A DNA stretch of 64,000 nucleotides from IMG/VR virus record IMGVR_UViG_3300045988_087221; one strand, 5' to 3'. Numbering within the stretch: the stretch's first letter is position 1; every line of letters starts with the position of its first letter. This document shows positions 1-64,000 of the stretch, one piece after another. This DNA comes from a virus. The notes below the pieces were generated by a model that worked only from the letters and a program-made list of their open reading frames with translations, had not been told where the DNA came from and searched no databases. The translations under genes and the position numbers were made by a program.

Positions 1-1
1 T

Positions 2-45539: not shown

Positions 45540-45752
45540 TTATTTATTATACCATATTACATGTGTATATTCCATATTTTTGTTTTTATCTTCATCTAAT
45601 GTGAAGGAAGAAGGAGATAACCATTTATGGGTCCAATCTCCATTCTCATTAGAATACTGTCCCTCACCGTCAGAATCTATAAACAATCCATCCTCAACGC
45701 GCTCTCTAAATTCATCTCTAGTATAGAGATTTCCATTATTTAACTTTTTCAT
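45540..45752 (-). CDS. Hypothetical protein (70 aa)
   Basis: Intact ORF with a TAA stop. It is the last gene of the - strand module and abuts the next ORF. Confidence 0.6.
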   Translation of the reverse strand: MKKLNNGNLYTRDEFRERVEDGLFIDSDGEGQYSNENGDWTHKWLSPSSFTLDEDKNKNMEYTHVIWYNK

Positions 45753-45753
45753 A

Positions 45754-46068
45754 TTAATTATTTTGTAATTGTCTTATCCTCTCTTGACATATATGAATAA
45801 TCTTTTCATAATCTTCTATTCTAGCTTCACTCTCAGTCTTTCCTTGTAATACTTTAGTTCTATATATACGTTTAACTACATCAGCATCCCAAGGATTTAG
45901 TTTCCAATCTTGCCATACCGACCAAGGTTGAATTATTGATTTAGAATAGTTACTTTCTCCAATATTTTTATCTCTTACATTAGAATCATCTGGAAGTATT
46001 CCAATCTTTTGCAAATATTTAAAAAGATTAAGATTATTATTTATATATTCAGGAGTTATTAACTGCAT
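45754..46068 (-). CDS. DUF3310-like phage protein (104 aa)
   Basis: ESNYSKSIIQPWSVWQDWKLNPWDADVVKRIYRTK resembles the DUF3310 pattern (nYy...iqp.dvi..w.l.f..gnviKYi.R). Recognised by eye only. Confidence 0.55.
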   Translation of the reverse strand: MQLITPEYINNNLNLFKYLQKIGILPDDSNVRDKNIGESNYSKSIIQPWSVWQDWKLNPWDADVVKRIYRTKVLQGKTESEARIEDYEKIIHICQERIRQLQNN

Positions 46069-46640
46069 TATTTAATATGTACTTTATAATGAATTTTATC
46101 TAATAATTCTGCCAGATTTACAGGTGTGAAGTTATTATTATCTACACCTACATCATACTGATTATCAAAATAATCCCATGGTTTATTCGGTGTGCTATGC
46201 ACATGACCATGTAATTGAATTATAGGACGATTGGTAGCTGGATCGGGCAGAGAACCAAAGGGGAAGTGATTAAGAATTATAGTTTTCTTCTCCACTTTAA
46301 TTACCTCTTCCCAAAAGAGGTCTGTAATCAAACGGTCTTCATTACCTAATTTTAGCATAAGGTCAAGGTTATCGTGATTACCCATGATAATCTTGATACA
46401 CCCGTTTAGATGCCTTAAAATATTTGGGATAAGTGATTTATCGCCTAAAGCAAAATCTCCCAAATGATAGACTGTATCATACTCAGAAACTACTTTATTC
46501 CAATTTGCTATTATAGTTTCATTCATTTCCTCTACTGAAGAAAATGGACGATTACAATACTTAATTATATTAGTATGATTAAAATGGGTATCTGAAGTTA
46601 CCCAAATATGTTTTGCTTCTTCTTTTGTATATTTGATCAT
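46068..46640 (-). CDS. Calcineurin-like metallophosphoesterase (190 aa)
   Basis: Motifs SDTHFNH, HLGDF, GNHD and HGHVH appear in canonical order. Confidence 0.85.
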   Translation of the reverse strand: MIKYTKEEAKHIWVTSDTHFNHTNIIKYCNRPFSSVEEMNETIIANWNKVVSEYDTVYHLGDFALGDKSLIPNILRHLNGCIKIIMGNHDNLDLMLKLGNEDRLITDLFWEEVIKVEKKTIILNHFPFGSLPDPATNRPIIQLHGHVHSTPNKPWDYFDNQYDVGVDNNNFTPVNLAELLDKIHYKVHIK

Positions 46641-46651
46641 TTATAATATAT

Positions 46652-47371
46652 TTATTTCTTGAAATAAAAGCAAATATTAGGTCTACCATAAACCCAACTT
46701 GTATCTATACTATAAAGGTACTTAATTTTACCACTTTGTGTATTGATAACATCATAGTTGATTCCACGACCTACTCCTATTATATTTGTTATTTGTCTTT
46801 TATTCCAAATGTTTCCATAATATCCAGCACCTGGATAAAAATCTATATAGATAGTTTTTTCGCCCTCTCTTAATAAATATTTACCAATACACTGCGGAAC
46901 TCTTGATTCTATTAAAGCTTTAATTAAAGGTCTTAAATATAATTTATTAAATCTTTTCTGATTCTCGTTATATTTATTAATTACTTGATAGTTACTCTTT
47001 TTAACAGGCTTCTTGTAATTAAGAATACCATTAGTTACATAAAACCCGCCACATTGAGAATCTATATCTTCTTTATTTTGAATAAAGCTATAAAATTCTT
47101 CTTTAGGATTAAATTTACTCAGATTATTACATCTAGACAGAAACTTAGAAAACACTTTATTAACTGGATGCCCTACATTGCATTTTAAAAATTTTTCAAA
47201 ATCACCATTAATATAGGTATAGTCATCATCGTTCCAATTATGCTTACAATACCCCCATTCTTTTAAATTTCTAGGAATAGCTGTAAAATCCTTAAACTTA
47301 TATCTAGGAAATTTCTTATGAGTTCTTTTACTTTTAGTACTACTTCTTTTTAAACCGAATGTTAATGTCAT
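46652..47371 (-). CDS. Hypothetical protein (239 aa), basic N-terminus
   Basis: Intact ORF with a TAA stop. No motif recognised. Confidence 0.7.
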   Translation of the reverse strand: MTLTFGLKRSSTKSKRTHKKFPRYKFKDFTAIPRNLKEWGYCKHNWNDDDYTYINGDFEKFLKCNVGHPVNKVFSKFLSRCNNLSKFNPKEEFYSFIQNKEDIDSQCGGFYVTNGILNYKKPVKKSNYQVINKYNENQKRFNKLYLRPLIKALIESRVPQCIGKYLLREGEKTIYIDFYPGAGYYGNIWNKRQITNIIGVGRGINYDVINTQSGKIKYLYSIDTSWVYGRPNICFYFKK

Positions 47372-47422
47372 AATAGTTTTATATTAATGTTCTCTGCTTC
47401 TCCTACTTTCTTATTAGAAATT

Positions 47423-47764
47423 TTAGTCAAGTTCTTTTAAAACAAAGCACTTAATTTCACCTTCAATTTCATAGAATACAACATCAAATGTATTTAAATA
47501 TGCAGCTGCACCAGACATTGAAGGACATTCTTCCTATTCTTTTAAACATCCCTCTAATGTTTGGATTACATATCCAGACATTTGATCAGGACCTCCAAAA
47601 TTATAATGATCACCATCCAGAAAGGTGAAACCTCCTTCAAATTCTACTAACTCATCTTTAATTTTAGGACATAATCCACGTTCAAAAATAAACTTATTAG
47701 AGAAGTACATAATTAATATTGACTTAGCTAAATCTAAATCACATACATAACCATCTTCATTCAT
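47423..47764 (-). CDS. Hypothetical protein, 113 aa if the in-frame TAG (47534..47536) is read through; 76 aa otherwise
   Basis: The track ORF 47534..47764 is the only - strand ORF that ends in TAG. The same frame continues QEECPSMSGAAAYLNTFDVVFYEIEGEIKCFVLKELD to TAA at 47423..47425. Confidence 0.5.
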
Positions 47765-47784
47765 ATTAATTAGTTATTAATTAA

Positions 47785-48159
47785 TTACACATATATAACT
47801 GTAGTTACCTCTTTTGGAAATACTTCTATTAAATCTGTGTCTTCATCTACCTTGTCTTTAAAACTCCAATATGGAGTTTGATAATAGTCAAAAGAATAAT
47901 ACTTATTATTAACTTTTACAATTGCTTTGTATTCAGTATAACCTTTTTCTAAATCAATATCAAGAATAGTATATTCGAGGTCTATTGCCTGTATATATGA
48001 ATATAATTTTTTTAAATAATCATATACTTCATCTGAGTTATGGGATTCACAAAATTCTAAATATTTGTCTGCGATATCATCAGGCATATAGTCTTCTATT
48101 TCTTCCCACCCATAATTTATATTAAGTATGTAATAATATTCGTCTAGTCTTAATTTCAT
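47785..48159 (-). CDS. Hypothetical acidic protein (124 aa)
   Basis: Intact ORF with an ATGA overlap to the upstream gene. Confidence 0.7.
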   Translation of the reverse strand: MKLRLDEYYYILNINYGWEEIEDYMPDDIADKYLEFCESHNSDEVYDYLKKLYSYIQAIDLEYTILDIDLEKGYTEYKAIVKVNNKYYSFDYYQTPYWSFKDKVDEDTDLIEVFPKEVTTVIYV

Positions 48160-48671
48160 AATTCCAAAAAGTCTCTAACGTCAATATAATCTATGCCAAA
48201 ATTTTCAGCACATTTCTTATCTGAGTCTGAAAAATCTCCAGGTTTACCAGAGGCATCACCTATCATAATACATTCATCTTTAGATTCTACTTTATACTGA
48301 TAGTATAATTGTTCTAACATTCCAGTATTAGGTTTTCGATAAGTATCATTCTTATCCATAGAACAACAATACAAGTTATCACTATAGGAAAAATTATTAA
48401 GGTTATTAATAAAATAACCATGACATATACCTTCTACAGCCCATATCTTATAATTAAAAATACGTTTATCTGTAAGAGTCTTTAAACCTCCTTGATTACT
48501 TACTATAAAAAACATCTTGAGATTAGACATCTTTTCTATTATTTTATCTAATACAGGAAGTTGTACTCTAAAATCAGTAATATCTTCAGGAAATGTTTTA
48601 CCTGATACAGTTTTAATTAAAGTACTGTCCAAATCAATGAACAGCACTTTTTTAGTTTCAAAATCAATCAT
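48156..48671 (-). CDS. HAD-superfamily polynucleotide 3'-phosphatase (PNK3P-like, 171 aa)
   Basis: Motifs are FIDLDSTLI (DxDxT), VSNQGG and IGDASGKPGDFSDSDKKCAENFGIDY. This is the pattern of DNA/RNA 3'-phosphatase domains of Pnkp-type enzymes. Confidence 0.75.
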   Translation of the reverse strand: MIDFETKKVLFIDLDSTLIKTVSGKTFPEDITDFRVQLPVLDKIIEKMSNLKMFFIVSNQGGLKTLTDKRIFNYKIWAVEGICHGYFINNLNNFSYSDNLYCCSMDKNDTYRKPNTGMLEQLYYQYKVESKDECIMIGDASGKPGDFSDSDKKCAENFGIDYIDVRDFLEL

Positions 48672-49057
48672 TCACAATATTGCTTAATTAATACTTCATC
48701 AGTTATGGCATCCTTTTGATAACCAGTATTAAGTTCTTTCATAGCCAAGCTATAACCCTCCCAATTATCAACTCCTTTAGCCTCTAAAGCCTCTAACTTT
48801 TCGGAATTTTGAATTAACATTAAGAGAACCTTCTTATCTATGAATGCTTTGTCATTTGATAAGTTAACAGAAGATAACTCGCTTTTACCCCACGGTATAT
48901 ATTCTTCCTCTCCTTCAGAATTTTTAGGTAGCATATCTTGATAACCATCCCATAATGGACAAGTCATTCCGGCAACCCAATCTAATATATCGTGCGCTGA
49001 TAAAAAACTAGTATTATCATTAACTAAATATTCAAAAACTTCAGTTACTTTATACAT
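48668..49057 (-). CDS. Hypothetical protein (129 aa), paralogous N-terminus with 49060..49251
   Basis: Compare MYKVTEVFEYLVNDN...PWGKSELSSVN with MYKIIETFEYYVENP...PWGNSNIRVIN in the neighbour. Confidence 0.7.
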   Translation of the reverse strand: MYKVTEVFEYLVNDNTSFLSAHDILDWVAGMTCPLWDGYQDMLPKNSEGEEEYIPWGKSELSSVNLSNDKAFIDKKVLLMLIQNSEKLEALEAKGVDNWEGYSLAMKELNTGYQKDAITDEVLIKQYCE

Positions 49058-49059
49058 TT

Positions 49060-49484: not shown

Positions 49485-49543
49485 ATAACAATATTTTTTA
49501 AAAATAAATAATTGATCTAATTAATACTAATCTAAATATTTAA

Positions 49544-50149
49544 TTATTCATAAGTTACTTTTATTGTATCCAGTACATAATTATGATAATACTCCTCTAA
49601 CTTAGGTATAATTTCATTTAAAAGAGTTGACTTATGATTAAATGCCCAGTTATAATTAGGAATTTCCTCTATAGGCAACCACTTAATTCCATCAACTTCA
49701 TCTTTCTCTCCACCTTCTTGGAGTTTACCAATATGTTTTCTAAGACTTAGGATACATAAATGTCTTAAAGTAACATTACCTTTATTACACTTTTTAGGGT
49801 CAGTCTCCACGTTAATTAATGCAAAAGCTTCTGAAGGAATACTAACTCCACATTCCTCGGCAACTTCTCTAGAACATGCTTCAGTAGCAGATTCTCCACC
49901 ATCTAAGTATCCACATGGCATATTCCATTTACCTTGGTCATCAGGAGTGCCTTTACCTCTTTTATTAATTAATACATACCATTTACCATCTTTTTCTTTA
50001 GCTAATACTACACAACTAACTGCACAATATCTACCACTCCAAAGAGTTTCTCCCTTATGGGGACCCTCTGGAATAGTATAAGAATAAGATTTTTCTATTT
50101 TACCTATTTGATTCATTTGCTTAAAATTAATGAAATTTTCTCGAGACAC
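49544..50149 (-). CDS. Nudix hydrolase
   Basis: Nudix box GGYLDGGESATEACSREVAEECGV (G-x5-E-x7-REUxEExGU). The true start may be ATG 50116, which forms an ATGA junction with the upstream read-through ORF. Confidence 0.85.
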   Translation of the reverse strand: MSRENFINFKQMNQIGKIEKSYSYTIPEGPHKGETLWSGRYCAVSCVVLAKEKDGKWYVLINKRGKGTPDDQGKWNMPCGYLDGGESATEACSREVAEECGVSIPSEAFALINVETDPKKCNKGNVTLRHLCILSLRKHIGKLQEGGEKDEVDGIKWLPIEEIPNYNWAFNHKSTLLNEIIPKLEEYYHNYVLDTIKVTYE

Positions 50150-50277
50150 TTATTACATATATATTTCTTTTCATTAAGTGTCTAATACCGAGTATAATAC
50201 TCTATTATTCCTACTTGCCTATCTAAATCTATAGTAGAGCCACAGAAATCACAAGTATAACTAATGTTTTTACCCAT
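50113..50277 (-). CDS. Small four-Cys zinc-ribbon protein (54 aa), requires read-through of TAG at 50182..50184
   Basis: Translates as MGKNISYTCDFCGSTIDLDRQVGIIEYYTRY-[TAG]-TLNEKKYICNKCLEKISLILSK. CxxC...CxxC is complete only with read-through. It ends in the ATGA overlap at 50113..50116. Confidence 0.5.
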
Positions 50278-51039: not shown

Positions 51040-51930
51040 TCATCTTGAAAAGTAAACTAATCCATTGAACTTTTCATGCATCGGCTTAGCTATTTCTTGA
51101 GCCATTGGATGGGCATCAGGAGCATCTCTTCTCTTAAAGAAGTTTTCCCAAGCATCTTTAAATCCACAAGAGATAAGCTCAGACTTAATACCTAGAGGAA
51201 GTATAGAACGAGCCTGCTGAGGTGTCCATCCTTCAGATAAAAGAAAGAAATAGTAATATTCTGCATATTGAAGAGCGTCAATAAGTCCTGATTCCGTTGC
51301 TCCCATACGAGGTAGCCTATCAGGAATATAATCTGGCGTACCATAGTCTCCTTCAGGAATATTACACCAGCATGGTTTAATAAAGGTAATCTCATTGCCA
51401 AATTTATCTTTAGAATAATTACAATAACGAGTACTTTCAGCTAAATGAGACAATCCTACATGAGTTCTGAACTCGTCCATAACTCCACGGTCAAGAACCA
51501 TATGAGCTGTGTATCTTTTATAATGATATTCAGTAGGTTCACAAAGATACTTTAAATCTTCTTCTAGATGATTTTCTACTATAACCCTATAATTAGTGGT
51601 GACATAAATAGTATTCCAGAGTTTTCCATCTATTCTAGTACTACCATTTCCAAAACTAAATTTACTCCAGGGACTATAAGTATATTTGTCAAGCCACGCC
51701 ATATTATCTTCTTTTTGAGCAGTTCTAGATAAATAAACGGTGCCAAACTCAAGAGGTCTATCATGTCCTCTAGATTCTAGCATATTTACAAACTTCTCAT
51801 AAGAAGTATCTGTAATTTTATCTTCGCTTTTATAACTTACTCGTGCACATCTTTCAATATGCTTCTTGATTCCCACCAAAGAGAAATCTGTTTGATTGAT
51901 AAATTCAAATGACTGTTTAATTAACTTCAT
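51040..51930 (-). CDS. thyX: Flavin-dependent thymidylate synthase ThyX
   Basis: CARVSYKS, GHDRPLEFGTVYL, the ThyX-type signature FRTHVGLSHLAESTRY (RHR-x7-S-like), and a C-terminal RRDAPDAHPMAQEI. Confidence 0.8.
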   Translation of the reverse strand: MKLIKQSFEFINQTDFSLVGIKKHIERCARVSYKSEDKITDTSYEKFVNMLESRGHDRPLEFGTVYLSRTAQKEDNMAWLDKYTYSPWSKFSFGNGSTRIDGKLWNTIYVTTNYRVIVENHLEEDLKYLCEPTEYHYKRYTAHMVLDRGVMDEFRTHVGLSHLAESTRYCNYSKDKFGNEITFIKPCWCNIPEGDYGTPDYIPDRLPRMGATESGLIDALQYAEYYYFFLLSEGWTPQQARSILPLGIKSELISCGFKDAWENFFKRRDAPDAHPMAQEIAKPMHEKFNGLVYFSR

Positions 51931-52348: not shown

Positions 52349-52722
52349 AATCCTATTGTCTTTCCTACTTCATTATCTATTAAACAATACTGAGAACCAT
52401 CAGACAATGTTTGAATAAATTTCTTACAATGTTCAACAATTTCAGCTTCTTTTTTAACACCGACAATTTGTCCTGTTCTATAAGGGTCTGCTTTAGTAGA
52501 TTTAGAAGCATCTATACCTACAAAAAATACAGCTTTATCCTTATAGGCAGCACACTCTTTACAAGCATGGTCAGCATATCCAATAGCTTTATCGTGTAAC
52601 TTCTCTACTTCTTTAGCATTTTCTTCTGTAAGTAGAGAGTTCATAATAATTCCATTATCAGCTTCCTTACCGCAAATTGGACACAAATATTTAACTATTG
52701 AGACTCCTAATTTATCAGGCAT
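52342..52722 (-). CDS. Zinc-ribbon-containing protein (126 aa)
   Basis: CPICGKE ... HACKECAAY (CxxC ... CxxC). Confidence 0.65.
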   Translation of the reverse strand: MPDKLGVSIVKYLCPICGKEADNGIIMNSLLTEENAKEVEKLHDKAIGYADHACKECAAYKDKAVFFVGIDASKSTKADPYRTGQIVGVKKEAEIVEHCKKFIQTLSDGSQYCLIDNEVGKTIGLW

Positions 52723-53630: not shown

Positions 53631-53634
53631 TTAA

Positions 53635-53928: not shown

Positions 53929-53930
53929 AA

Positions 53931-54910: not shown

Positions 54911-54923
54911 AATTATTTAATTA

Positions 54924-57110
54924 TTAGTGAACCCAATGGTCATTTATATCTATATCTGCTCCTAAAAATACATTAGGACAGAATGGTTTACCCCCAGCTA
55001 TCATACAATCAATAAGTACTTTACCTATTTGTTCTTTAATTGCTGTTGGACACTCTAGATTAAATTCATCATGAGCTGGCACACACATCTTTACCTTATC
55101 TATTAACTTATGATCCACAATCCAATTAAATAATTTAATAGAAGATAGTTTAAAACACATTGCTCCTCTATTTTGTATTCTATAATTAATAGATTGTTTC
55201 TCAGAAGCTGCTTTACGCTGCATATAATGTCTTACTTCCTGTACAATTTCATCCTGTGGATTACGTTTTCTTACATTCTGATAATACTCCCAAAATCCAG
55301 GTTCCTGCATTTTATTATGTGTCTCTTTTAACTCTTCAGCATCATAAATATGTGCTCTATGTCCAGTGAGAGGATTAAGTAATATATAACCATCCCTCAT
55401 AACAGCTGCTCTACAATAGTCTTGGTATCTTTTTATTCCTGGAAAACCTTCCATAAAATTATCATAAATTTCTTTGGCTTCTTCTACAGGAATACCATCA
55501 TTCTTAGATATAGTATTATAGTCTCCTCCATAATTAATAGCAAACTCGATAGATTTAGCCTTCTGTCTCCAATTATGATAGAGCTTCTTTATATCCTCAA
55601 TCTTAGTGTCTCTTGGAATTATATTAGGATAACTCATGTAGGCTACCAAAGAATGAACATCGCCACAACCATGTTCAAATAAGTCTATCATCTTCTCATC
55701 CTTAGAAACAGATGCAATAATACGAGATTCCTGACTTTGATAATCAGCAGATAACCAAGCATTACCTTCCTCAGATGTAAAGCATGCTCTAGTTTCTGGA
55801 TCGTGGGGTAGATTTTGCATATTCAGTTTCCAAACACCTCCACCAGAGCTAACTCTTGCTGTGTCAGTACCTATAGAATGAAAATCTGCATGTATTCTAC
55901 CTGTTTTAGGATTAATTGCATTTAACCAGTTTTGTCCATAGGTAGATACGACTTTAGCAGCTTCTTGATACTCCAAAAATATAGGAATAATTGGAAAATC
56001 ATTCTTTTGAGGCTTTAAAACATTTGCTTCAATAGACTTCTTTTTCTGTTTAGTCTTTTTGTCAAATGTCTCTACATTAATTCCAAGTAACTCAAATAGA
56101 GGTATTACCTGTTTTTGACTACTCCAATTTATCACACATTTAGGTTCAGTATCAAATCCTGTAAATAAGTCACCTTGAGTGTCAATTCGTGTAAATTGAT
56201 TCTTAATTACCTTCTTATAGGCATCAACCTTACCATCAGGAGTTTGTAAGTCTTCCTGAGGAAATCTTTTATATCCATCCTTAGTCAGTCTCTTTACCTC
56301 AGCAGGATAATCTGCAGAATATTTAGGATATTTAAGTTCAGGATATTGAATATCATAGCCATTATGAGGATTTTCTTTATCCCAAGCTACTACCCAAGCA
56401 TTTAATTCTGAAATAGCCTTATCAAGTTTAGCTTGGTCTTTAGTCATTTTAGCTTTCCACTTTGTAATATCGAGGTGAACCCCACAATATTTAAAGTAAG
56501 CAAGGGATTTAACAAATTCACATTCCAGCTCTACTGCGAGTTTCATGCCCTGTTTTTCCACTTCAATATCTTGTTTTTCTTTTATATCCTCTATATACGT
56601 AACATCCCCTGCTGCATAAATAACAACCTCAGTAGTTAAACCATCATTAACAATTTTACCTCGAACAGTCTTATCAATATTAATATTTAAATAATTCCAT
56701 GCAGCTGCCTTTAAGCTCTTTTCACGCATTTGAGCTGGATACCCTAGATATAAGAGCTGTTCTGCTATCATACCATCCCAAATATGTTTAGGATAGATAC
56801 CTTGAACATATAAAAAGGTTAAATCAAACATTAAATTCCATCCTAGAAACAATCTGTCTGATTCTAGGTAATTTTTAACTATTTGCTTTTCTCTTGGAGT
56901 TACAGTAGTCCAATCAATAACTACTTGATTATCTTTATTACCTAACTGTATAGTCAATAAAGCTTTAGTATGACAGTCAAGTCCCTTAGTTTCAGTATCT
57001 AATTGACATAATTTAAGAGGCAACAGAACAGACATTGCCTGCTCCATTGTTGCCTCTATATATTTATCAGTTTGAAATAAACTTTTATTATGACTAACTA
57101 AATAGATCAT
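54924..57110 (-). CDS. Family A DNA polymerase with 3'-5' exonuclease domain (728 aa)
   Basis: Exo motifs are LDTETKGLD, GWNLMFDLTFL and YAAGDVTY. Pol motifs are TDTARVSS...NMQNLP, SADYSQQESRI (motif A), RQKAKSIEFAINYGG (motif B) and VPAHDEF (motif C). Confidence 0.95.
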   Translation of the reverse strand: MIYLVSHNKSLFQTDKYIEATMEQAMSVLLPLKLCQLDTETKGLDCHTKALLTIQLGNKDNQVVIDWTTVTPREKQIVKNYLESDRLFLGWNLMFDLTFLYVQGIYPKHIWDGMIAEQLLYLGYPAQMREKSLKAAAWNYLNINIDKTVRGKIVNDGLTTEVVIYAAGDVTYIEDIKEKQDIEVEKQGMKLAVELECEFVKSLAYFKYCGVHLDITKWKAKMTKDQAKLDKAISELNAWVVAWDKENPHNGYDIQYPELKYPKYSADYPAEVKRLTKDGYKRFPQEDLQTPDGKVDAYKKVIKNQFTRIDTQGDLFTGFDTEPKCVINWSSQKQVIPLFELLGINVETFDKKTKQKKKSIEANVLKPQKNDFPIIPIFLEYQEAAKVVSTYGQNWLNAINPKTGRIHADFHSIGTDTARVSSGGGVWKLNMQNLPHDPETRACFTSEEGNAWLSADYQSQESRIIASVSKDEKMIDLFEHGCGDVHSLVAYMSYPNIIPRDTKIEDIKKLYHNWRQKAKSIEFAINYGGDYNTISKNDGIPVEEAKEIYDNFMEGFPGIKRYQDYCRAAVMRDGYILLNPLTGHRAHIYDAEELKETHNKMQEPGFWEYYQNVRKRNPQDEIVQEVRHYMQRKAASEKQSINYRIQNRGAMCFKLSSIKLFNWIVDHKLIDKVKMCVPAHDEFNLECPTAIKEQIGKVLIDCMIAGGKPFCPNVFLGADIDINDHWVH

Positions 57111-57370
57111 TGATAATCACAAATAGTTAAATTATTTAGAATTATATCTTCATTATCAATATTTAATTTATCTTTTATAGCTTTTTCTACGGCTTCTTTT
57201 AATTCTTCTTCGTTAATAACTAAATGTCTGCCTTCTTTATACTGAGGAATTGTAACATCTACAAAAGTACCCAATTCAACATTTACTTCTACGGTAATAT
57301 TTCTATCATTAGGTTCATTCCAAGGTGCACTTGGGTCATTATAAGCTCCTGCTGGATAGTTTTCTGTCAT
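57107..57370 (-). CDS. Hypothetical protein (87 aa)
   Basis: Intact ORF with ATGA overlaps on both sides. Confidence 0.65.
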   Translation of the reverse strand: MTENYPAGAYNDPSAPWNEPNDRNITVEVNVELGTFVDVTIPQYKEGRHLVINEEELKEAVEKAIKDKLNIDNEDIILNNLTICDYQ

Positions 57371-57690
57371 GCTAAATAATCATTTAACCACTCTACTCCA
57401 TATTCATCTATTACCTTTTCATCTATCTTTATAGCTTCAAGTTCTATATCCTCAAGCTGCTGTTCATACCAATCTTCAAATTGGTCCTCATCATCCTCGT
57501 CTATATCTGGACTATCTAAATAGCTGAATGAGTTAACACACTCATCTCTTAATTCATTTGCATAATCCAATTCTAATGTAGGATCTTCTTCACTCTCAAT
57601 CACCTCTTTTATTGAAGCATCACAAGCAACAGGATACTTAGCAATAACTAGCCACCAATTTCCATTAAGAAATTCTTCTTTAGATATCAT
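57367..57690 (-). CDS. Highly acidic protein (107 aa)
   Basis: Contains SPDIDEDDEDQFEDWYEQQLEDIELEAI. Intact ORF. Confidence 0.65.
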   Translation of the reverse strand: MISKEEFLNGNWWLVIAKYPVACDASIKEVIESEEDPTLELDYANELRDECVNSFSYLDSPDIDEDDEDQFEDWYEQQLEDIELEAIKIDEKVIDEYGVEWLNDYLA

Positions 57691-58535
57691 TATATTAATT
57701 TAGATAATTGTAAATTGCATCTCTTTCTTATTCTATCTAAAGCCTTTTCCTTTATCTGTCTAACTCTTTCAACACCGATACCAAACATGTCTCCTACTTC
57801 TTGTTTAGACATAGGATTCATTCCTATACCAAATAGCATAATGATAATATCATGTTCTCTAACAGGAAGTACATCTAGACATTTACATATTTCTTTATTA
57901 ATGAAACTCTTATTAACTTGTTCATCAAGAGGTAGTTCTCCATCCGGAATCACATCACACACTTGACTATTTTCTTCATCCCCGCCAATAAAATCATCAA
58001 CACTGACTAATCTGTTAGAAAATTGTGCTAAATAATCTATTTGCTTTTCAGGAATATTAGTTAAAGTGTGTAATTCATTTGTGGTTGGATTTCTACCATT
58101 CTTTTTGATAAACTCATTAGTAGCTCTTAATATTTGAATTACTTTTAAGTGTTGAGTTACCGGTAATCTAATCTCACGACCATACCAATATATGGTAGTA
58201 TAAATACATTGTTTTATCCACCAAGCAGAATAATTAAGAAATTTAACACCTCTAGTTGGGTCAAACTTATTTACAGATTTACATAAGCCTTCCAATCCTG
58301 AAGATATTAAATCCATAAGAGGAATACCTCTATTTTGAAACTGCTTAGCTATAGTTACTACAAATCTTAAATTAGAAGTAATTACTTTTTCTCTTGCCTT
58401 TTCATCTCCATTTTGAGCTTTAATGATTAATTCATTTATTTCTTCATTATCTAATATTTTATATTTAGATATATCTCGAAAATAACTCTGAAGTAGAGAG
58501 TCAGACTTGTCAGAAAAAATAACTCTTTTATTCAT
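57690..58535 (-). CDS. Sigma-70 family RNA polymerase sigma factor (281 aa)
   Basis: Region 2 is NLRFVVTIAKQFQNRGIPLMDLISSGLEGLCKSVNKFDPTRGVKFLNYSAWWIKQCI. Region 4 HTH is MSKQEVGDMFGIGVERVRQIKEKALDRIRK. Confidence 0.85.
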   Translation of the reverse strand: MNKRVIFSDKSDSLLQSYFRDISKYKILDNEEINELIIKAQNGDEKAREKVITSNLRFVVTIAKQFQNRGIPLMDLISSGLEGLCKSVNKFDPTRGVKFLNYSAWWIKQCIYTTIYWYGREIRLPVTQHLKVIQILRATNEFIKKNGRNPTTNELHTLTNIPEKQIDYLAQFSNRLVSVDDFIGGDEENSQVCDVIPDGELPLDEQVNKSFINKEICKCLDVLPVREHDIIIMLFGIGMNPMSKQEVGDMFGIGVERVRQIKEKALDRIRKRCNLQLSKLI

Positions 58536-58791
58536 TAATTGTAGACTTAGCTAGTTTCTTAGCTTCATCTAATTGCTTTTCTTCTTGGGTTGGTCTGTTA
58601 AGACCTATACGTATACTAAGAATAGTAAGATAAGCTTCCATTGCTCTGAGTTGAACTATTAACAAATCTTTATTAAGATCATCTATGGAAGTCTTATCTA
58701 CTTTATGAATTAAGAAATCTCTAAGTTCTGTAGTTTTAATTTCTAATTCCTTATAATCAGTAATAAGTTGATTGAATACTTCTTCTTTCAT
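58528..58791 (-). CDS. Hypothetical helical protein (87 aa)
   Basis: Intact ORF. It is preceded by a 66-nt AT-rich gap (58792..57), a possible promoter region. Confidence 0.6.
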   Translation of the reverse strand: MKEEVFNQLITDYKELEIKTTELRDFLIHKVDKTSIDDLNKDLLIVQLRAMEAYLTILSIRIGLNRPTQEEKQLDEAKKLAKSTINE

Positions 58792-58857
58792 TACTAGTAT
58801 TTTTAATTAAAGTAGAATCTAGAACAGTAAATATCTAATATATTATCTTCTTCTTTA

Positions 58858-59547
58858 TTAATCGATTTCCAAATATGTAGGTTCATAACTAATATGATAA
58901 TCATTATCAAGAATAGAAACATTATATATTTCTGTATTATCCAATTTTAGATATTTATCTTTACAAGTATGTAGATGCCCACAAAATACATATCTAGGTT
59001 TAATTCTCTGAATAGCTTCAGCTAAACTTTGACCTCCTGCATGGATAGATTCTTGACTCCATCGACTCGGAGGTAATAAATCCAAATCTCCTAAAGCAGG
59101 AGTATCGTGGGTCAACCATATATCTATATCATCTGGAACCTGAGTATATAAGCCTCCTAAATATAATTCACTATACATAAATGCCCAATGCCCAAATAGG
59201 TGACACTGTGGAGATCCATATACTTTATAATTTTTACCATCAGGAGCCATATAGGTAGCACAATCATTAAGTAAATAAGTAAACTTAAAATCAGAAAGAT
59301 ACTCCAAAGCTTTCATTACTGGATATTCTGAAGCACATATAAAATCATGATTACCTGCTATCATATACACCTCTTCACAAGGTAATTCCTTAATCCAGGG
59401 TAAAAAATCTTGAAAGAACCATACAATAGATTCTACTCTATTTTTCTGTATATTCAAGGGTACAACATCTCCTGCAATTAAACACAAATCACACTTTTGT
59501 ATATGGATAAGATTACCATGTAAATCAGACATTGAGCATATTTTCAT
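58858..59547 (-). CDS. Calcineurin-like metallophosphoesterase (229 aa)
   Basis: Motifs SDLHGN, AGDV, GNHD and GHLH appear in canonical order. Confidence 0.8.
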   Translation of the reverse strand: MKICSMSDLHGNLIHIQKCDLCLIAGDVVPLNIQKNRVESIVWFFQDFLPWIKELPCEEVYMIAGNHDFICASEYPVMKALEYLSDFKFTYLLNDCATYMAPDGKNYKVYGSPQCHLFGHWAFMYSELYLGGLYTQVPDDIDIWLTHDTPALGDLDLLPPSRWSQESIHAGGQSLAEAIQRIKPRYVFCGHLHTCKDKYLKLDNTEIYNVSILDNDYHISYEPTYLEID

Positions 59548-60046
59548 ATTCTATTAAATATTCAAAGAATCCATCATAAGATAAGTTATCTTTTATTGTG
59601 ATAACTTCCTTTCTATTATCTACAGATTTACACCATTGATGTCCATTAACTACTTGATATAGAGATTTATTATTATATACTATATCTAGCATAGCTTCCC
59701 AAGTAGCTATATTTCCAATATAAGAATAATCATCTCCTATAATTGCATAGTTAAACATAAATATTAATTGCCACTTCCTAAATAAAGTGATAGCAATATA
59801 AGGATTCCATTCATGCTCAATTCTCTCATACTTCCATTTCCAACCAACAGCGCTAAATCTAATATCTAATATTCTATTATAATATCTATCTGTTATAGGT
59901 AATCCAAAGAACCATATTTTCTTACCACAATGAATATAACAATTGGGTCTTTGAAACCAATTTCTACACTTCCACCAAACATAGAATGGGTTTCTGTATT
60001 CATTCCAATGCTTGATGAAAGTATGTACTTTATTAATTAAGTTCAT
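59525..60046 (-). CDS. Hypothetical Trp-rich protein (173 aa)
   Basis: Intact ORF that overlaps both neighbours. Confidence 0.65.
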   Translation of the reverse strand: MNLINKVHTFIKHWNEYRNPFYVWWKCRNWFQRPNCYIHCGKKIWFFGLPITDRYYNRILDIRFSAVGWKWKYERIEHEWNPYIAITLFRKWQLIFMFNYAIIGDDYSYIGNIATWEAMLDIVYNNKSLYQVVNGHQWCKSVDNRKEVITIKDNLSYDGFFEYLIEYENMLNV

Positions 60047-61406
60047 CTTCTTTATCCATCTCTGGGTCAGATTGAGCTTTATCTACAAATTTAAAACATT
60101 TTAATTTCCAAGCGTGACCAATCATATCCTCCTTTTTAATAACTATACCCTCATGAGGTACCTTATTAATACAAGAAGGCGATTTACATTCCATATAGAA
60201 ACGCTTATCATTAGATAGTTTATCCAAAAACTTTTTTGCCCAGTCTCTATCCTTACTATCTAATTCAGGATATAAATCCTTAGCATACCCATAATAATAT
60301 TCAGTTACAGGAATTAGCCCTACTGATTTACAATACTGTTGTACTTCTCTTGCACTAAATTCATGTACTTCACCATCTATATTAGTTAGTGTGATTCTAT
60401 AAGGTCTTACTTTAAAATGTTTTTCTGGCTTATATATCAAATTGTCTACAACAGCATCAGGCTTCTCACAACCATAATCATATCCCTTTTGAATATATGT
60501 GCCAGTTGGATTGTATCCTACAATCTCTGCATAAATAGTCATACCCTTTTGAATATATGGACGTAGATAATCATCAGCATACTTCCAAGTATCACAACCA
60601 TAAAATCCTGGTGTTACATTAGGATTATAATACTGATTTTTAATCACATTCTTTGAAGCATATAGATGGTCATAAATATCAAAGTTATTACCCGTAAGCC
60701 ATTTAGCTAATTTTTCTTTCCAAGTAAGTTCCTTATGACACATTACATATGCTGAAATATGAGACATTCCATGTATTTTCTCAGTAATACTAATTAAATC
60801 TTCAGGTTGAATTACATTAGGACATTTCTTGATAATAACTGTGTCATAATGAAATCTGAATTGAGAAGGGATGACTTTATCGAGTTCCTTCTTAACTTTA
60901 CGTGTCTTTTTTGAGCCTCCTCCAGAAGTTCCCTGTGATCCTTTAACGATGAATTTCTTATTAACCCAAAATGTCTTGCCTTCATGTTCTACTGTATCAA
61001 ATTCAGTTCCATCAATTAATTCAATATCTCTATTAGTTATAGATATAAGCCAGTTAGTAAATTCTACAGCAGGTACAATAAATCCTTCTGATAGTTCACC
61101 TTTTAACTTAACTGCTTTAACCTTACCATTATCTTCAAATAGACCAGTTTTATGTGGATTGTTGTTTTTCTCAGACTTTCTAAATAAATTATCATAAGAT
61201 AAAAAATCAGGATTAATACAACAAGCTGTTGGGAAATATATATAAAGCCCAGGTTCAGCATCTATTGAAGTAATAATATTAAATCCATCAATAGTACAAC
61301 ACTTGAGTTTAGTCACTTCTGGATTTGAATGTTTTCTAAAAACCTTAATATCAACTACTTTAGCTAGATAATTAATGTTACAATTTTTGCTCTTGATTAG
61401 CTTCAT
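60033..61406 (-). CDS. RNA ligase-family nucleotidyltransferase (457 aa)
   Basis: Motif I is TEKIHGMS (K-x-H/D-G). Motif IV is HEGIVIKK. Motif V is WKLKCFKF. The N-terminal OB-like segment is typical of PF09414-type RNA ligases. Recognised by eye only. Confidence 0.7.
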   Translation of the reverse strand: MKLIKSKNCNINYLAKVVDIKVFRKHSNPEVTKLKCCTIDGFNIITSIDAEPGLYIYFPTACCINPDFLSYDNLFRKSEKNNNPHKTGLFEDNGKVKAVKLKGELSEGFIVPAVEFTNWLISITNRDIELIDGTEFDTVEHEGKTFWVNKKFIVKGSQGTSGGGSKKTRKVKKELDKVIPSQFRFHYDTVIIKKCPNVIQPEDLISITEKIHGMSHISAYVMCHKELTWKEKLAKWLTGNNFDIYDHLYASKNVIKNQYYNPNVTPGFYGCDTWKYADDYLRPYIQKGMTIYAEIVGYNPTGTYIQKGYDYGCEKPDAVVDNLIYKPEKHFKVRPYRITLTNIDGEVHEFSAREVQQYCKSVGLIPVTEYYYGYAKDLYPELDSKDRDWAKKFLDKLSNDKRFYMECKSPSCINKVPHEGIVIKKEDMIGHAWKLKCFKFVDKAQSDPEMDKEDELN

Positions 61407-61713
61407 TATTAATTAATTCTTGAGAGAACTTAACATTATCTAATGAAATAATCTCAGATACCCAAGGACACTTATCTAAGATTGCCAATCTAATTGCCTC
61501 TTTAACCTTAGTCACCATCTGTGCTTCAGTTAAATTAGCATATTTACTTTTATCTACTTTGATACACCAAGGTAGGGCTGATTCAAACCCTCCTTGATGT
61601 ATTTTTATAGTAGCATCGAAATTAATAGCATATTCCCTTAGTTTAGAAACATACTTAACTTTTGGTTTCCTTTCGATAACTACTGGTGGAACAACTGCTT
61701 TCTTTTTAGGCAT
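61378..61713 (-). CDS. Hypothetical protein (111 aa)
   Basis: Intact ORF. Confidence 0.6.
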   Translation of the reverse strand: MPKKKAVVPPVVIERKPKVKYVSKLREYAINFDATIKIHQGGFESALPWCIKVDKSKYANLTEAQMVTKVKEAIRLAILDKCPWVSEIISLDNVKFSQELINNEANQEQKL

Positions 61714-62030
61714 TATGCAAATTCATCATCCGAAGCAACAGATTTGAAATATTCACACAGAAAGTTGGCATATACTTGTGATTGTGCTTCACTATAGCTA
61801 TTATCGAAATAGAATTGAAAACAATGGAGAAGTTCATGCCAAAATGTATTGGTTATTTGATCTTCTGTCAACTTCACCACAGTTTTATCCTCTAATTCTA
61901 TAGTCTTAGCTATAGTTATAGTATTGGTAGCATCGCACCAATTTCCATAATTATTATTATCTGTTTTTTCTACTAATTCTACTTTAATAGTATTTCCAGC
62001 ACACTTAAACTCACTTGGCAATTGCATCAA
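61713..62030 (-). CDS. Small HExxH-motif protein (105 aa), possible Zn-metallopeptidase
   Basis: TFWHELLHCFQ contains H-E-L-L-H. Confidence 0.6.
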   Translation of the reverse strand: MMQLPSEFKCAGNTIKVELVEKTDNNNYGNWCDATNTITIAKTIELEDKTVVKLTEDQITNTFWHELLHCFQFYFDNSYSEAQSQVYANFLCEYFKSVASDDEFA

Positions 62031-62409
62031 TAATTTTCATTACTTGTTCAGGAGTCATCTTATATATGTCTTCAGAATCTTTTAAATTTGCTCTGTCTTC
62101 TAAATAGTTAAGCAAATCATCCATTACATCTAAGGTGCCTATTGGCAAATGATTCTTAATAACAGAATATTCTATATCAGAAAGTTCTACTGGTTCAAAT
62201 TGTAATAAATCTAAACCATATTCTTGACCTTGGTACACCTCATATTCCCAGGCTTCATTAGAACCAAACCCCTTTGTAGTAAATGCACTACCTAATTTAA
62301 GTTTAGCATACATATAGATGCGATACATATCTTCATCTAATAGTTCATAGAAAGGCATATCAAATTCATCACACCAATCTACACTATAGTTAATTAAATA
62401 ATGTTTCAT
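62011..62409 (-). CDS. Hypothetical acidic protein (132 aa)
   Basis: Intact ORF. Confidence 0.65.
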   Translation of the reverse strand: MKHYLINYSVDWCDEFDMPFYELLDEDMYRIYMYAKLKLGSAFTTKGFGSNEAWEYEVYQGQEYGLDLLQFEPVELSDIEYSVIKNHLPIGTLDVMDDLLNYLEDRANLKDSEDIYKMTPEQVMKIIDAIAK

Positions 62410-63032
62410 GCTCCAGTTTGTGCTGTATAAAAGTTAATATTTCCAGTCCCTACTATATGGGCTTCTTCATCTACTTTATCTATATAATACTCTACTTCAC
62501 CTTCAAAATCCTCAATTATAGTAGCACACCAAGGATGCTCTTCTATCCAAGATTTCCAATCAGGATTATATGCAAGTATCTCATCAAGTAAAAACACTCC
62601 TACAAGACCAGCATCTGCACAGAATCCTCCTATATAGGTATCCCCATCAAAGGTGTCTAACTCCTCACGTTTGTCATCTTTTAAAATTCGTAGAATACTT
62701 TCTAGAAGTTCTTTTGGTTCCTCCTCTGTTTGATAGGTAGTGCAACTCCAATCTCCATAAATAGTAGATTCAGAAATATAATTATGGATACCTAATACTT
62801 CCATATTCTCTCCATAATCACATTTACCCCAATCGTCATATTTACGAGACTCACTGAAGTAATAATCTAAAGCAGCTTTATAAGCCAATTCTTCTGGAGT
62901 AGAATAATCCTTAAATGGTTTACTAATTATAGATGCTGGAAGTCCAAAATCCTTTTCATTAGGACACTTAATAGGATTCTCCTTAATTATATAACATGGA
63001 TCTGTAATTACAATAGTTCCTTTAAAATACAT
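62406..63032 (-). CDS. Hypothetical protein (208 aa)
   Basis: Intact ORF with an ATGA overlap downstream. Confidence 0.65.
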   Translation of the reverse strand: MYFKGTIVITDPCYIIKENPIKCPNEKDFGLPASIISKPFKDYSTPEELAYKAALDYYFSESRKYDDWGKCDYGENMEVLGIHNYISESTIYGDWSCTTYQTEEEPKELLESILRILKDDKREELDTFDGDTYIGGFCADAGLVGVFLLDEILAYNPDWKSWIEEHPWCATIIEDFEGEVEYYIDKVDEEAHIVGTGNINFYTAQTGA

Positions 63033-63166
63033 TAGTCTGCAAAATTTAGAGTTGCTCCTACTTGAGCATTATTTAATGTATCTAAATCATATTTATCAAA
63101 TCTACCTATAACTTTATTTTTATAAATTACCTCGTAGTGTCCTTTACCTATCAGTTTTATTTTCAT
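63032..63166 (-). CDS. Small hypothetical protein (44 aa), below the ORF-track cutoff
   Basis: Translates as MKIKLIGKGHYEVIYKNKVIGRFDKYDLDTLNNAQVGATLNFAD. It has a TAATG junction with the downstream gene. Confidence 0.4.
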   Translation of the reverse strand: MKIKLIGKGHYEVIYKNKVIGRFDKYDLDTLNNAQVGATLNFAD

Positions 63167-63189
63167 ATATGTAAAATTACTAGTAAAAT

Positions 63190-64000
63190 TTACTCTAAAT
63201 CAAAACGGAAGATTCTTAACTTAGGTTGAGTAGGAATGCCATCATCTGAATAGTTAAAGAAAGTACATTCAGCTTTGTGCCCTTTGTACTTAGTTTCAAA
63301 GTTTTCAACATATTCAGCCTTAATTTCCCTATTACCTACTGGCATAGCTTCAAAAGTACGTCCATCTTCTAATTCACAAGTAAATGTCATATCCTCAGAA
63401 CCTCTAAGTCCTAATTTATACCCAATTACTTTAAAATCTTCAGACTTATATTGTTTAATCTTTATAAGATTATTACAACGAGAACCTACTTTATAAGACT
63501 TAGAAGGGTCTGTAATTACAGCTCCTTCAAATCCTGTGGAAACCCATTCATCGTGAAGTTTTTTCATATTATCCCAACCAGATACATATTCATGTCCCAA
63601 GAGTCTAATTGGTGCTTCTGATTCATCCTCACTACTTCTATAAATAGGGAAGTTATGAGCTTCTGCAAATTTATCTTCCAAGAACTTATAACGTTCTGAG
63701 GCTATCATGTCAATATCTGTAGAGTTATAACAATCGTATACCCAATACTGCAACCAATCACAGTCATAAGCGTTCTTCTCCATTCTAGCAGCTCCCGAAA
63801 GTTGCTGAAGAGTCTTGCCTCTTACGAAGAGCTCACCATCAAGAATAACAGTAGGATTCTCTTTGAAGAAGGCTACTAGAGAAGGGTTAGTACGTAAATG
63901 AACTGTACTATAGTCGTAATGCTCGCCTCCTCGACTGGCTGTATAGATCACTTTACCATCCCAGTAGAATAATGCCTTTACACCATCAAGTTTTCTACTA
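63190..64000 (-). CDS. ATP-dependent DNA ligase (N-terminus beyond the window edge)
   Basis: The frame stays open upstream of the track's GTG to base 64000. It encodes SRKLDGVKALFYWDGK, with motif I KxDG at 63982..63993. Then come LDGELF (motif III), EGAVITD (motif IV), LIKIKQ (motif V) and a C-terminal OB-like region. Confidence 0.85.
   Translation of the reverse strand, partial: SRKLDGVKALFYWDGKVIYTASRGGEHYDYSTVHLRTNPSLVAFFKENPTVILDGELFVRGKTLQQLSGAARMEKNAYDCDWLQYWVYDCYNSTDIDMIASERYKFLEDKFAEAHNFPIYRSSEDESEAPIRLLGHEYVSGWDNMKKLHDEWVSTGFEGAVITDPSKSYKVGSRCNNLIKIKQYKSEDFKVIGYKLGLRGSEDMTFTCELEDGRTFEAMPVGNREIKAEYVENFETKYKGHKAECTFFNYSDDGIPTQPKLRIFRFDLE

What the first reader, a model, noticed from the sequence alone, without database searches (positions are those of the whole stretch)
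45540..64000. Recoding is module-asymmetric: the replication/early module is almost TAG-free
The roughly 40 - strand genes are intact in the standard code. They include PolA, sigma factor, ThyX, the ligases and Nudix.

I checked every terminal stop. All are TAA or TGA except one TAG, at 47534..47536, and that frame continues in phase. I could find only two in-frame TAGs in 18.5 kb. The convergent + module carries hundreds.

This fits a translational timing lock. Early genes can be translated by the naive host. Virion genes, which each hit a TAG within their first ~40 codons, stay untranslatable until a phage-supplied suppressor system is active.

The early module also encodes a sigma factor. 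Late expression may therefore be gated twice, once at transcription and once at translation.
Basis: partly seen in the sequence, partly recalled or inferred. Interest (0 to 1): 0.8.

Follow-up and report, generated by a model that had tools for sequence, protein, structure and literature searches.

The report
Amber recoding confined to virion genes
This is part of a ~190-kb crAss-like gut phage that reads the stop codon TAG as glutamine only in its virion genes and keeps its replication genes TAG-free, which is a real pattern but one already published for these phages.

Summary
On the + strand (2..45250), 12 genes are intact only if TAG is read as an amino acid. They carry 529 in-frame TAGs, about 35 per 1000 codons.

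The 36 minus-strand ORFs (45540..64000) are intact in the standard code. They carry 2 in-frame TAGs and no TAG terminator (Fisher p ~1e-63). Out-of-frame TAG is equally common in both modules.

Both early TAGs are point mutations specific to a sublineage. One replaces Tyr (TAT) and the other Trp (TGG).

TAG means Gln: in 93-98% identical relatives it exchanges mainly with CAG and CAA.

The window has no tRNA. Walking upstream in near-identical relatives found a conserved 73-nt tRNA(CUA). It lies about 95 kb from the module junction, as the second gene of the late-oriented strand, inside a TAG-free leader about 7 kb long.

The "translational timing lock" is a published hypothesis for crAss-like phages (Yutin 2021; Borges 2021/22; Peters 2022). 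Sequence alone cannot show timing.

The "TAG within 40 codons" point follows from TAG density alone. Double gating by the sigma factor is untested.

Verdict: confirmed, already known, with modest added detail.

The parts
2..45250 (+). Virion/structural (late) module. It has 12 genes, including ORFs of 2186, 1457, 3074, 3435 and 1508 aa. They are readable only with TAG as sense, carry 529 in-frame TAGs, and all end in TAA or TGA.
   Evidence: An SLT transglycosylase domain lies at 10638-11300 and DUF192 at 11300-11923. The module is contiguous with Crass_capsid MCP and CrAss_Ring_1 genes directly upstream on an identical contig, L029.
45259..45444 (+). Last + strand ORF, 61 aa with cysteine pairs. 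It has no TAG and only one Gln codon.
45449..45534 (.). Two long G+C-rich hairpins flanked by A-runs and T-runs. They look like bidirectional terminators at the convergent module junction. GC skew changes sign here.
   Evidence: 2 terminator-like sites found against 0.3 expected..
45540..64000 (-). Replication / nucleotide-metabolism (early) module. It has 36 ORFs intact in the standard code, 2 in-frame TAGs and no TAG terminators.
47534..47536 (-). In-frame TAG in ORF 47423..47764. Relatives have TAT or TAC (Tyr) at this position, so it is a sublineage-specific nonsense point mutation.
   Evidence: 6 relatives. One search shows the same 76-aa truncated product on three contigs, the two listed being a JGI assembly (3300030343) and a Logan assembly (SRR26499398). 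It is therefore not a read error.
50182..50184 (-). In-frame TAG in a small CxxC...CxxC ORF at 50113..50277. Relatives have TGG (Trp), so it is a strain-specific nonsense point mutation.
57690..58535 (-). Sigma-70 family factor, 281 aa, with regions 2, 3 and 4. It is TAG-free and sits next to PolA.
   Evidence: It is conserved in relatives. It is 30-37% identical to RpoD-type phage and bacterial sigmas, and MT835492.1 has a homologue.
54924..57110 (-). Family A DNA polymerase with a 3'-5' exonuclease domain.
   Evidence: The best GenBank phage hits are Crassvirales at 43-47% identity.
51040..51930 (-). ThyX (Thy1) thymidylate synthase.
49544..50116 (-). NUDIX hydrolase.
60033..61406 (-). RNA ligase-like protein. 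Together with the PNK3P phosphatase at 48156-48671 and the AAA_33 kinase at 53931-54365, it forms a possible RNA-repair set.
63190..64000 (-). ATP-dependent DNA ligase, cut by the window end. It is 406 aa on the full contig.

Best explanation
What the window is (shown). The window covers the 3' two-thirds of the virion module and the 3' part of the replication module of a ~190-kb crAss-like (Crassvirales) human-gut phage. The two modules are transcribed convergently.

How the code is used (shown). The phage uses genetic code 15 (TAG = Gln) only in the virion/packaging module. There, TAG supplies 62% of all Gln codons. The replication module is written so that it reads the same with or without suppression. 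It has no sense TAG, and TAG is almost never a terminator. Where TAG does end an ORF outside the window, a TAA or TGA follows within a few codons.

The suppressor (shown in relatives). The lineage carries one Gln-like tRNA(CUA). It is the second gene of the late-oriented strand, next to the divergent early/late intergenic region. It lies inside a TAG-free leader of about 7 kb that precedes the first TAG-bearing genes and the terminase gene.

Mechanism (inferred). On entry, only TAG-free genes can give full-length proteins. Virion, packaging and giant cargo proteins terminate at their first TAG until tRNA(CUA) has built up enough to outcompete host RF1. Late protein synthesis therefore depends on a phage-made RNA.

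What remains open. The anatomy, the meaning of the codon and the existence of the suppressor are shown. The timing is inferred, as is whether the lock is an adaptation or only a constraint.
For: Module asymmetry and frame specificity.

The same architecture holds beyond the window:
- On an identical contig, 20 further early genes (2,871 codons) have one TAG, at the last-but-one codon with TAA one codon later.
- The 8.8 kb upstream of the window holds further TAG-bearing late genes.
- In MT835492.1, the + strand 0-63 kb is standard code and the minus strand 63.7-121.6 kb is TAG-laden.
- Relatives show the same pattern across about 40 kb upstream of the major capsid gene.

TAG = Gln:
- Where a window TAG differs in 93-98% identical relatives, the relative has CAG 19 times and CAA 11 times out of 41. 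In reverse, CAG 28 and CAA 5 out of 44.
- The suppressor is most similar to tRNA-Gln among 24 comparison tRNAs.
- Proteomics has shown TAG = Gln in other crAss-like phages.

Suppressor.

Crassvirales identity: Crass_capsid and CrAss_Ring_1 on the 100%-identical contig, crAss001_48, and PolA hits.

Back-up stops lie within 0-6 codons of 9 of 11 TAG-ended early ORFs (P = 0.004).

Published model.
Against: - No expression data exist for this phage.
- The suppressor lies on the late strand, so it may be co-transcribed with the genes it unlocks. Translation would then add little delay beyond transcription.
- I could not read the suppressor region in the source contig itself. Four of 16 close relatives showed no tRNA in the 10 kb fetched.
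- The capsid gene and two neighbours use TAG for only 17-22% of their Gln codons, against 48-75% in most other late genes of 140 aa or more. This points to a translational cost of TAG, not selection for a stronger lock on the most critical late proteins.
- First-TAG positions show no N-terminal bias.
- Alignment with the distant IAS virus was uninformative. Gln sits at 5 of 34 TAG positions, all five in the portal protein.
Confidence: 0.6

Rival explanations
1. By-product of constraint, not a regulatory device. Once a suppressor exists, CAG-to-TAG transitions drift to high frequency in an A+T-rich genome, in any gene that is translated while the suppressor is abundant. Genes needed before that stay TAG-free through purifying selection. 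On this view the asymmetry records when each gene is translated but controls nothing.
For: - The genome is about 30% G+C.
- TAG exchanges freely with CAG among close relatives.
- TAGs are placed uniformly within genes.
- New ambers are arising in early genes by single mutations from Tyr and Trp codons, and they persist across assemblies.
- The most highly expressed late gene, the capsid gene, has the fewest TAGs.
- Borges et al. describe a low-GC route to recoding.
Against: TAG is twice as common as CAA in late genes (529 versus 259), although both codons carry one G/C. That is more than simple A+T pressure predicts. Every late gene of >=95 aa has TAGs. Back-up stops in early genes point to active adaptation to readthrough.
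Confidence: 0.25
2. The suppressor is mainly an anti-host weapon. tRNA(CUA) forces readthrough of host TAG-terminated mRNAs, including defence genes, and corrupts host proteins. The phage protects its own genes by avoiding TAG stops. TAG in late genes is then secondary.
For: - Yutin et al. 2021 propose this.
- The Zeta-phage paper notes suppressor tRNAs in genomes with no recoding.
- No phage gene in the window ends in TAG, and TAG-ended early ORFs elsewhere have back-up stops.
Against: This does not explain why 3.5% of all late codons are TAG while early genes have essentially none. It is compatible with the lock model and does not replace it.
Confidence: 0.1
3. Artefact. The window could be a chimeric assembly of two phages with different codes, or TAG-rich noise on one strand.
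For: None, beyond the abrupt change at 45.5 kb.
Against: - Two assemblies in different archives are 100% identical to the parts of the window they cover. L017 from ENA covers 52406-64000, and L029 from JGI covers 1-11471.
- IMG/VR contigs such as L001, L002, L007, L009 and L013 align across the 45.5-kb junction itself, and an exact 36-nt junction motif occurs in 13 IMG/VR contigs.
- More than 70 IMG/VR contigs of 110-220 kb carry TAG-laden late-module segments of the same kind.
- Reading TAG as sense restores 99.4% coding coverage.
Confidence: 0.01

Closest known systems
TAG-recoded (code 15) crAss-like phages with recoding limited to late genes (Yutin et al. 2021, PMC7886860; Borges et al. 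2021 bioRxiv 10.1101/2021.08.26.457843; Peters et al. 2022, PMC9523058)
   Same: TAG = Gln. Structural and packaging genes form one alternatively coded unit, while replication genes are in standard code. A phage-encoded tRNA(CUA) is present. The source is the human gut. The timing-lock hypothesis is stated explicitly in these papers.
   Different: The crAss-like genomes Borges analysed were about 105 kb, and only four gene families preferred TAG over CAA/CAG. Here the genome is about 190 kb and TAG is the majority Gln codon in most late genes. No release factor or aminoacyl-tRNA synthetase was seen in the parts I could read.
Zeta group crAss-like phages / proposed Echekviridae (Yutin 2021; PMC12386605)
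   Same: Genome size is 145-192 kb. The replication and nucleotide-metabolism set is rich: PolA, NrdD, ThyX, dUTPase. Homing endonucleases split PolA, NrdD and TerL in relatives. Some branches reassign TAG. TAG-ended ORFs are followed closely by another stop, as that paper notes.
   Different: Membership was not tested by TerL phylogeny. The described Zeta genomes carry up to 26 tRNAs in a block at the genome start. This lineage has a 6-tRNA block without a suppressor and a solitary tRNA(CUA) elsewhere. 'Sigma' does not occur in either paper.
'Code-change module' of TGA-recoded Jade phages (Borges et al.)
   Same: The suppressor tRNA is encoded in standard-code context directly upstream of the recoded genes it unlocks.
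   Different: Jade phages reassign TGA to Trp, carry TrpRS and RF1 alongside the tRNA, and place the module before the lysis cassette. Here a lone tRNA(CUA) sits at the head of the whole late strand.
Phage-encoded late sigma factors (T4 gp55, SPO1 gp28/gp33-34); comparison from general knowledge, not tested here
   Same: A sigma-family protein is encoded among replication-phase genes.
   Different: The protein here has regions 2, 3 and 4 and resembles RpoD-type sigmas at 30-37% identity. No target promoters were identified, and crassviruses also carry a virion RNA polymerase.

Membership tests
Code-15 (TAG to Gln) alternatively coded phage | Long ORFs are restored when TAG is read as sense, and not when TGA or TAA is. 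| tested here: met
   Coverage of the + strand rises from 15.6% to 99.4% with TAG as sense. It stays at 15.6% with TGA and reaches only 21% with TAA.
Code-15 (TAG to Gln) alternatively coded phage | TAG positions correspond to Gln in homologues. | tested here: met
   Near relatives show CAG or CAA at 30 of 41 and 33 of 44 differing sites. The distant comparison with IAS virus is inconclusive, with Gln at 5 of 34 positions.
Code-15 (TAG to Gln) alternatively coded phage | A phage-encoded suppressor tRNA with anticodon CUA. | tested here: met
   Found in close relatives that are 90-99% identical in the late genes used for the walk and 85-98% in DNA overlapping the window. Rfam tRNA score is 63.3 bits. 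It is absent from the window. The corresponding part of the source contig could not be read.
Code-15 (TAG to Gln) alternatively coded phage | Recoding is confined to structural/lysis genes, with replication genes in standard code. | tested here: met
Code-15 (TAG to Gln) alternatively coded phage | The host uses the standard code, and the code switch happens during infection. | not testable with these tools
   No host is identified and there are no expression data.
Crassvirales | Crassvirus-type major capsid protein and tail ring protein. | tested here: met
   PF23898 Crass_capsid scores 28.6 bits (cut-off 27). PF24228 CrAss_Ring_1 scores 33.3 bits (cut-off 27). Both are on L029, which is 100% identical to window 1-11471. 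The margins are narrow, and PHROGs and PDB sequence searches found nothing.
Crassvirales | A block of giant multidomain proteins including the virion RNA polymerase (DxDxD motif). | not tested
   ORFs of 2186, 3074 and 3435 aa lie in the expected position. Their domains were not searched.
Zeta crAss-like group | Genome of 145-192 kb and TerL within the Zeta clade. | tested here: inconclusive
   Size is met, with contigs of 190,276 and 190,320 bp. No TerL phylogeny was done.
Sigma-70 family | Regions 2 and 4, which recognise the -10 and -35 promoter elements, are present. | tested here: met
   Region 2 scores 50.3 bits, region 3 scores 33.1 and region 4 scores 46.4. All are above the Pfam cut-offs.
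Sigma-70 family | It directs transcription of the late module. | not testable with these tools
   The late module has too few intergenic regions to define a promoter motif.

The most novel reading that the evidence does not exclude
The phage may run a multi-part code switch instead of relying on a lone suppressor. The parts would be: (a) a Gln-like tRNA(CUA) placed as the second gene of the late strand; (b) a free-standing YqeY/GatB-C-terminal-like protein in the early module, just beyond the window end; and (c) a phage sigma factor that turns on the late strand, including the tRNA. The YqeY protein would help host GlnRS charge a tRNA whose anticodon no longer matches GlnRS identity rules. Transcription and decoding would then be unlocked by early-module products. 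YqeY did not co-occur with 'phage' and 'suppressor tRNA' in any of the top-ranked papers of the library search.
Probability: 0.1. Interest if true: 0.6.

Novelty: already known. Interest (0 to 1): 0.25.

Why it matters
The window is a very clean example of a phage that uses two genetic codes in one genome. The replication half is readable under either code. The virion half is unreadable without a phage-made tRNA.

In practical terms, standard gene callers shatter 45 kb of this window into fragments, so annotation must use code 15 for that module.

Biologically the case adds small points to a known picture:
- Amber codons are now appearing in early genes by single mutations at Tyr and Trp codons.
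- The capsid gene avoids TAG.
- The suppressor sits at the head of the late strand, not among the replication genes.

None of this changes the published model.

Tried and rejected
Suppressor search that failed before the walk succeeded:
- ARAGORN and Rfam found no tRNA in the window.
- The only related GenBank record, MT835492.1 (121.6 kb), has 6 tRNAs and none is a suppressor. It proved to lack the region that carries the suppressor in relatives and has no terminal overlap, so it is an incomplete record.
- A 6-tRNA block in relatives (Ala, Gly, Asp, Thr, Met, Tyr) has no suppressor, even at Rfam E <= 10.
- Relaxed ARAGORN thresholds and intron mode gave only implausible calls inside coding regions.
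- I looked for a repeated motif of >=14 nt that would let one scan fetch many genome pieces. None exists.
- The metagenome scan with the tRNA sequence returned 25 contigs, but not the source contig.
- A homology search followed by a contig look-up also did not reach the source contig.

Annotation attempts that gave little:
- PHROGs gave no hits for 16 of 17 late proteins. A PDB sequence search of the capsid fragment gave none.
- Alignment of TerL, portal and MCP with the standard-code IAS virus (about 22% identity) was too distant to show what TAG encodes.
- Late-module intergenic regions are too few to define a promoter for the sigma factor.

Ideas rejected:
- N-terminal enrichment of TAG as a design feature.
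- Absence of TAG terminators in the window as a strong signal on its own.
- Assembly chimera.


Full report
**What the window is.** Base composition is about 30% G+C. GC skew changes sign near 45.5 kb. Under the standard code the + strand of 1..45500 has almost no long ORFs, with 15.6% coverage by ORFs of >=100 aa. Reading TAG as sense raises coverage to 99.4%. Reading TGA or TAA as sense does not. The minus strand of 45540..64000 is 85% covered by standard-code ORFs. Two long hairpins with flanking A-runs and T-runs lie between the modules at 45449-45534, against 0.3 such sites expected by chance. The two modules are therefore convergent transcription units.

**Counts.** Thirteen + genes hold 15,084 codons and 529 in-frame TAGs (35 per 1000 codons, 11.7 per kb). 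All end in TAA or TGA. Thirty-six minus-strand ORFs hold 5,991 codons and two in-frame TAGs (0.33 per 1000). They end in 25 TAA and 11 TGA. TAG against CAA+CAG is 529/323 late and 2/185 early (Fisher p = 2.5e-63). TAG in the two non-coding phases is equally frequent in both modules. The difference therefore concerns the reading frame and not composition. Pfam also finds a PNK-type phosphatase, an AAA_33 kinase, two metallophosphatases, a T7 gp5.9-like domain and a crAss001_48 domain.

**The two early TAGs.**
- At 47534-47536, six relatives have TAT or TAC (Tyr), and the rest of the ORF is conserved.
- At 50182-50184, four relatives have TGG (Trp).

Both are single-base nonsense changes in this sublineage and not conserved recoded sites. 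The 76-aa truncated product of the first gene is recorded on three contigs, the two listed being a JGI assembly and a Logan assembly. The change is therefore real. These genes either tolerate truncation or are completed, with a Gln substitution, once suppression is active.

**Identity and source.** PolA is 43-47% identical to Crassvirales polymerases. Look-ups by exact protein sequence found two contigs identical to the window: ENA ERZ1745351 NODE_6 (190,276 bp) and JGI 3300030343 Ga0243299_100003 (190,320 bp). The 8.8 kb upstream of the window on the JGI contig holds further TAG-bearing genes. These include a Crass_capsid major capsid protein and a CrAss_Ring_1 tail ring protein. The 9 kb beyond the window end holds 20 more standard-code genes: NrdD, thioredoxin, YqeY, dCTP deaminase/dUTPase and the full DNA ligase. 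They carry one TAG, at the last-but-one codon, with TAA one codon later. Size and gene content fit the large 'Zeta' crAss-like phages. I did not test this by phylogeny.

**Meaning of TAG.** Seven IMG/VR relatives are 92-98% identical to the window over 33.6-47.7 kb.
- Where a window TAG differs in a relative, the relative has CAG 19 times and CAA 11 times out of 41.
- Where a relative has TAG and the window differs, the window has CAG 28 times and CAA 5 times out of 44.

CAA is two mutations from TAG, so these exchanges mark synonymy with Gln. The counts include shared changes and are not independent events. Alignment with the standard-code IAS virus at about 22% identity was too distant to help. 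Proteomic proof of TAG = Gln exists for other crAss-like phages.

**The suppressor.** The window has no tRNA. The one related GenBank record has six ordinary tRNAs. A conserved 6-tRNA block in relatives also lacks a suppressor. I then walked upstream from the capsid gene in relatives, using four successive protein queries. The TAG-laden module continues for about 40 kb through a tail-fibre-like protein, a 2124-aa protein, portal and TerL.

About 9 kb upstream of the TerL C-terminal segment used as the query lies a 73-nt tRNA with anticodon CUA. It is identical or nearly so in 12 of 16 close relatives. It is also present in 7 of 10 ENA/JGI/Logan loci and 25 metagenome contigs. It scores 63.3 bits against Rfam tRNA. 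It has a U1-A72 pair and is closest to tRNA-Gln among 24 comparison tRNAs.

The gene order around it is as follows:
- a divergent intergenic region of about 290 nt with long G-runs;
- a 132-aa ORF;
- tRNA(CUA);
- three small TAG-free ORFs;
- a variable minus-strand insert with TAG-rich ORFs;
- a PD-(D/E)XK nuclease and three more TAG-free ORFs;
- the first TAG-bearing genes, followed by TerL.

To the left of the divergent region, genes run the other way and are almost TAG-free. This is the start of the early module. The suppressor therefore heads the late-oriented strand in a TAG-free leader. I could not read this region in the source contig itself, so its presence there is inferred from these close relatives.

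**How it probably works.** On infection, only TAG-free genes can give full-length products. Every late gene of >=95 aa has at least two TAGs, the first at codon 4-57. These genes should yield only short peptides until tRNA(CUA) competes effectively with host RF1. This is the model published by Borges et al. for crAss-like and other gut phages. [quoted passage not shown]

- First-TAG positions match random placement at the observed density (P = 0.25).
- TAG share of Gln codons is 48-75% in most late genes of 140 aa or more. It is only 17-22% in the capsid gene and two neighbours. This suggests TAG carries a cost in the most highly expressed genes.
- Zero TAG terminators among 36 genes is only marginally unusual. 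Outside the window, early ORFs do end in TAG, with a back-up TAA or TGA within 0-6 codons in 9 of 11 cases (P = 0.004).
- The tRNA shares a strand with the late genes. The translational gate may therefore not be independent of transcription.

**The sigma factor.** It is real and TAG-free. It is conserved next to PolA in relatives and in MT835492.1. Nothing links it to late promoters, because the late module has too few intergenic regions to define a motif. 'Sigma' does not occur in the two main papers on these phages. The gene is a lead, not evidence for a second gate.

**Rivals.**
- A neutral constraint model fits the A+T pressure, the free TAG/CAG exchange, the uniform TAG placement and the new ambers in early genes. 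In this model TAG drifts up wherever the suppressor is present, and early genes are merely kept clean. It is strained by TAG being twice as common as CAA.
- The anti-host readthrough idea explains the avoidance of TAG stops but not the asymmetry.
- An assembly artefact is excluded by identical independent assemblies, by IMG/VR contigs that align across the junction, and by more than 70 related contigs.

**Verdict.** The interpretation restates a published hypothesis. It is supported as far as sequence allows by the discovery of the lineage's suppressor, and its temporal claim remains untested. Novelty: already known. Interest: low to moderate.

Noticed in passing
L017 4254-4694 (+ in locus). 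This is about 5.3 kb beyond the window end, on the early strand.: A free-standing YqeY protein (PF09424, 53.3 bits). This is a GatB-C-terminal-like domain which, from general knowledge, helps GlnRS bind tRNA-Gln in Deinococcus. It could assist charging of the Gln-type suppressor. No top-ranked paper in the library search held YqeY together with phage and suppressor tRNA.
   Followed up: partly
L132 946-1018 (+); L184 4624-5428: The amber-suppressor tRNA(CUA) is the second gene after a ~290-nt divergent intergenic region. That region contains G-runs of 7 and 13 nt. It may be an origin or promoter region separating the early and late strands.
   Followed up: partly
L184 6607-9877 (minus strand in locus); L132 2154-3503: A variable insert of TAG-rich ORFs on the opposite strand sits between the suppressor tRNA and the PD-(D/E)XK nuclease. 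Its gene content differs between relatives and its function is unknown.
   Followed up: no
L029 1-1071, 1165-2052, 3271-4287 (window -8798 to -4512): The major capsid gene and two neighbouring genes use TAG for only 17-22% of Gln codons, against 48-75% in most other late genes of 140 aa or more. This is consistent with a translational cost of suppression in the most highly expressed genes.
   Followed up: partly
window 48156-48671, 53931-54365, 60033-61406, 46068-46640, 58858-59547: A PNK-type 3'-phosphatase, an AAA_33 kinase, an RNA ligase and two metallophosphatases are scattered through the early module. They form a possible RNA/tRNA repair set against host anticodon nucleases.
   Followed up: no
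window 48668-49057: A 129-aa protein with a T7 gp5.9-like RecBCD-inhibitor domain (PF25708, 47.4 bits).
   Followed up: no
window 58528-58791: A crAss001_48-related protein (PF21825, named Sequestin in the precomputed hits) lies directly upstream of the sigma-factor gene and overlaps it. The arrangement is conserved in relatives.
   Followed up: no
L019 1271-4693 and 15943-19029; L184 14610-18021: In some relatives, HNH and LAGLIDADG homing-endonuclease genes split NrdD, PolA and TerL. The window's own PolA is uninterrupted.
   Followed up: no
MT835492.1 12704-13201 (L014): An ORF that looks like a GIY-YIG homing endonuclease (by eye, not tested) lies inside the tRNA block of the early module and has two in-frame TAGs. 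Borges et al. describe a similar recoded endonuclease inside an early gene.
   Followed up: no
L017 5337-5345; L028 3327-3335, 6337-6351; MT835492.1, several sites: Early ORFs that end in TAG have a TAA or TGA within 0-6 codons in 9 of 11 cases (P = 0.004). These act as tandem back-up stops that limit readthrough once the suppressor is active.
   Followed up: yes
L028 1417-2514; L014 11783-13885: A conserved 6-7 tRNA block (Ala, Gly, Asp, Thr, Met, Tyr, plus Asn in MT835492.1) has conserved spacers of 145-290 nt between the tRNAs. The spacers matched no Rfam family. ARAGORN missed the tRNA-Thr in MT835492.1.
   Followed up: partly
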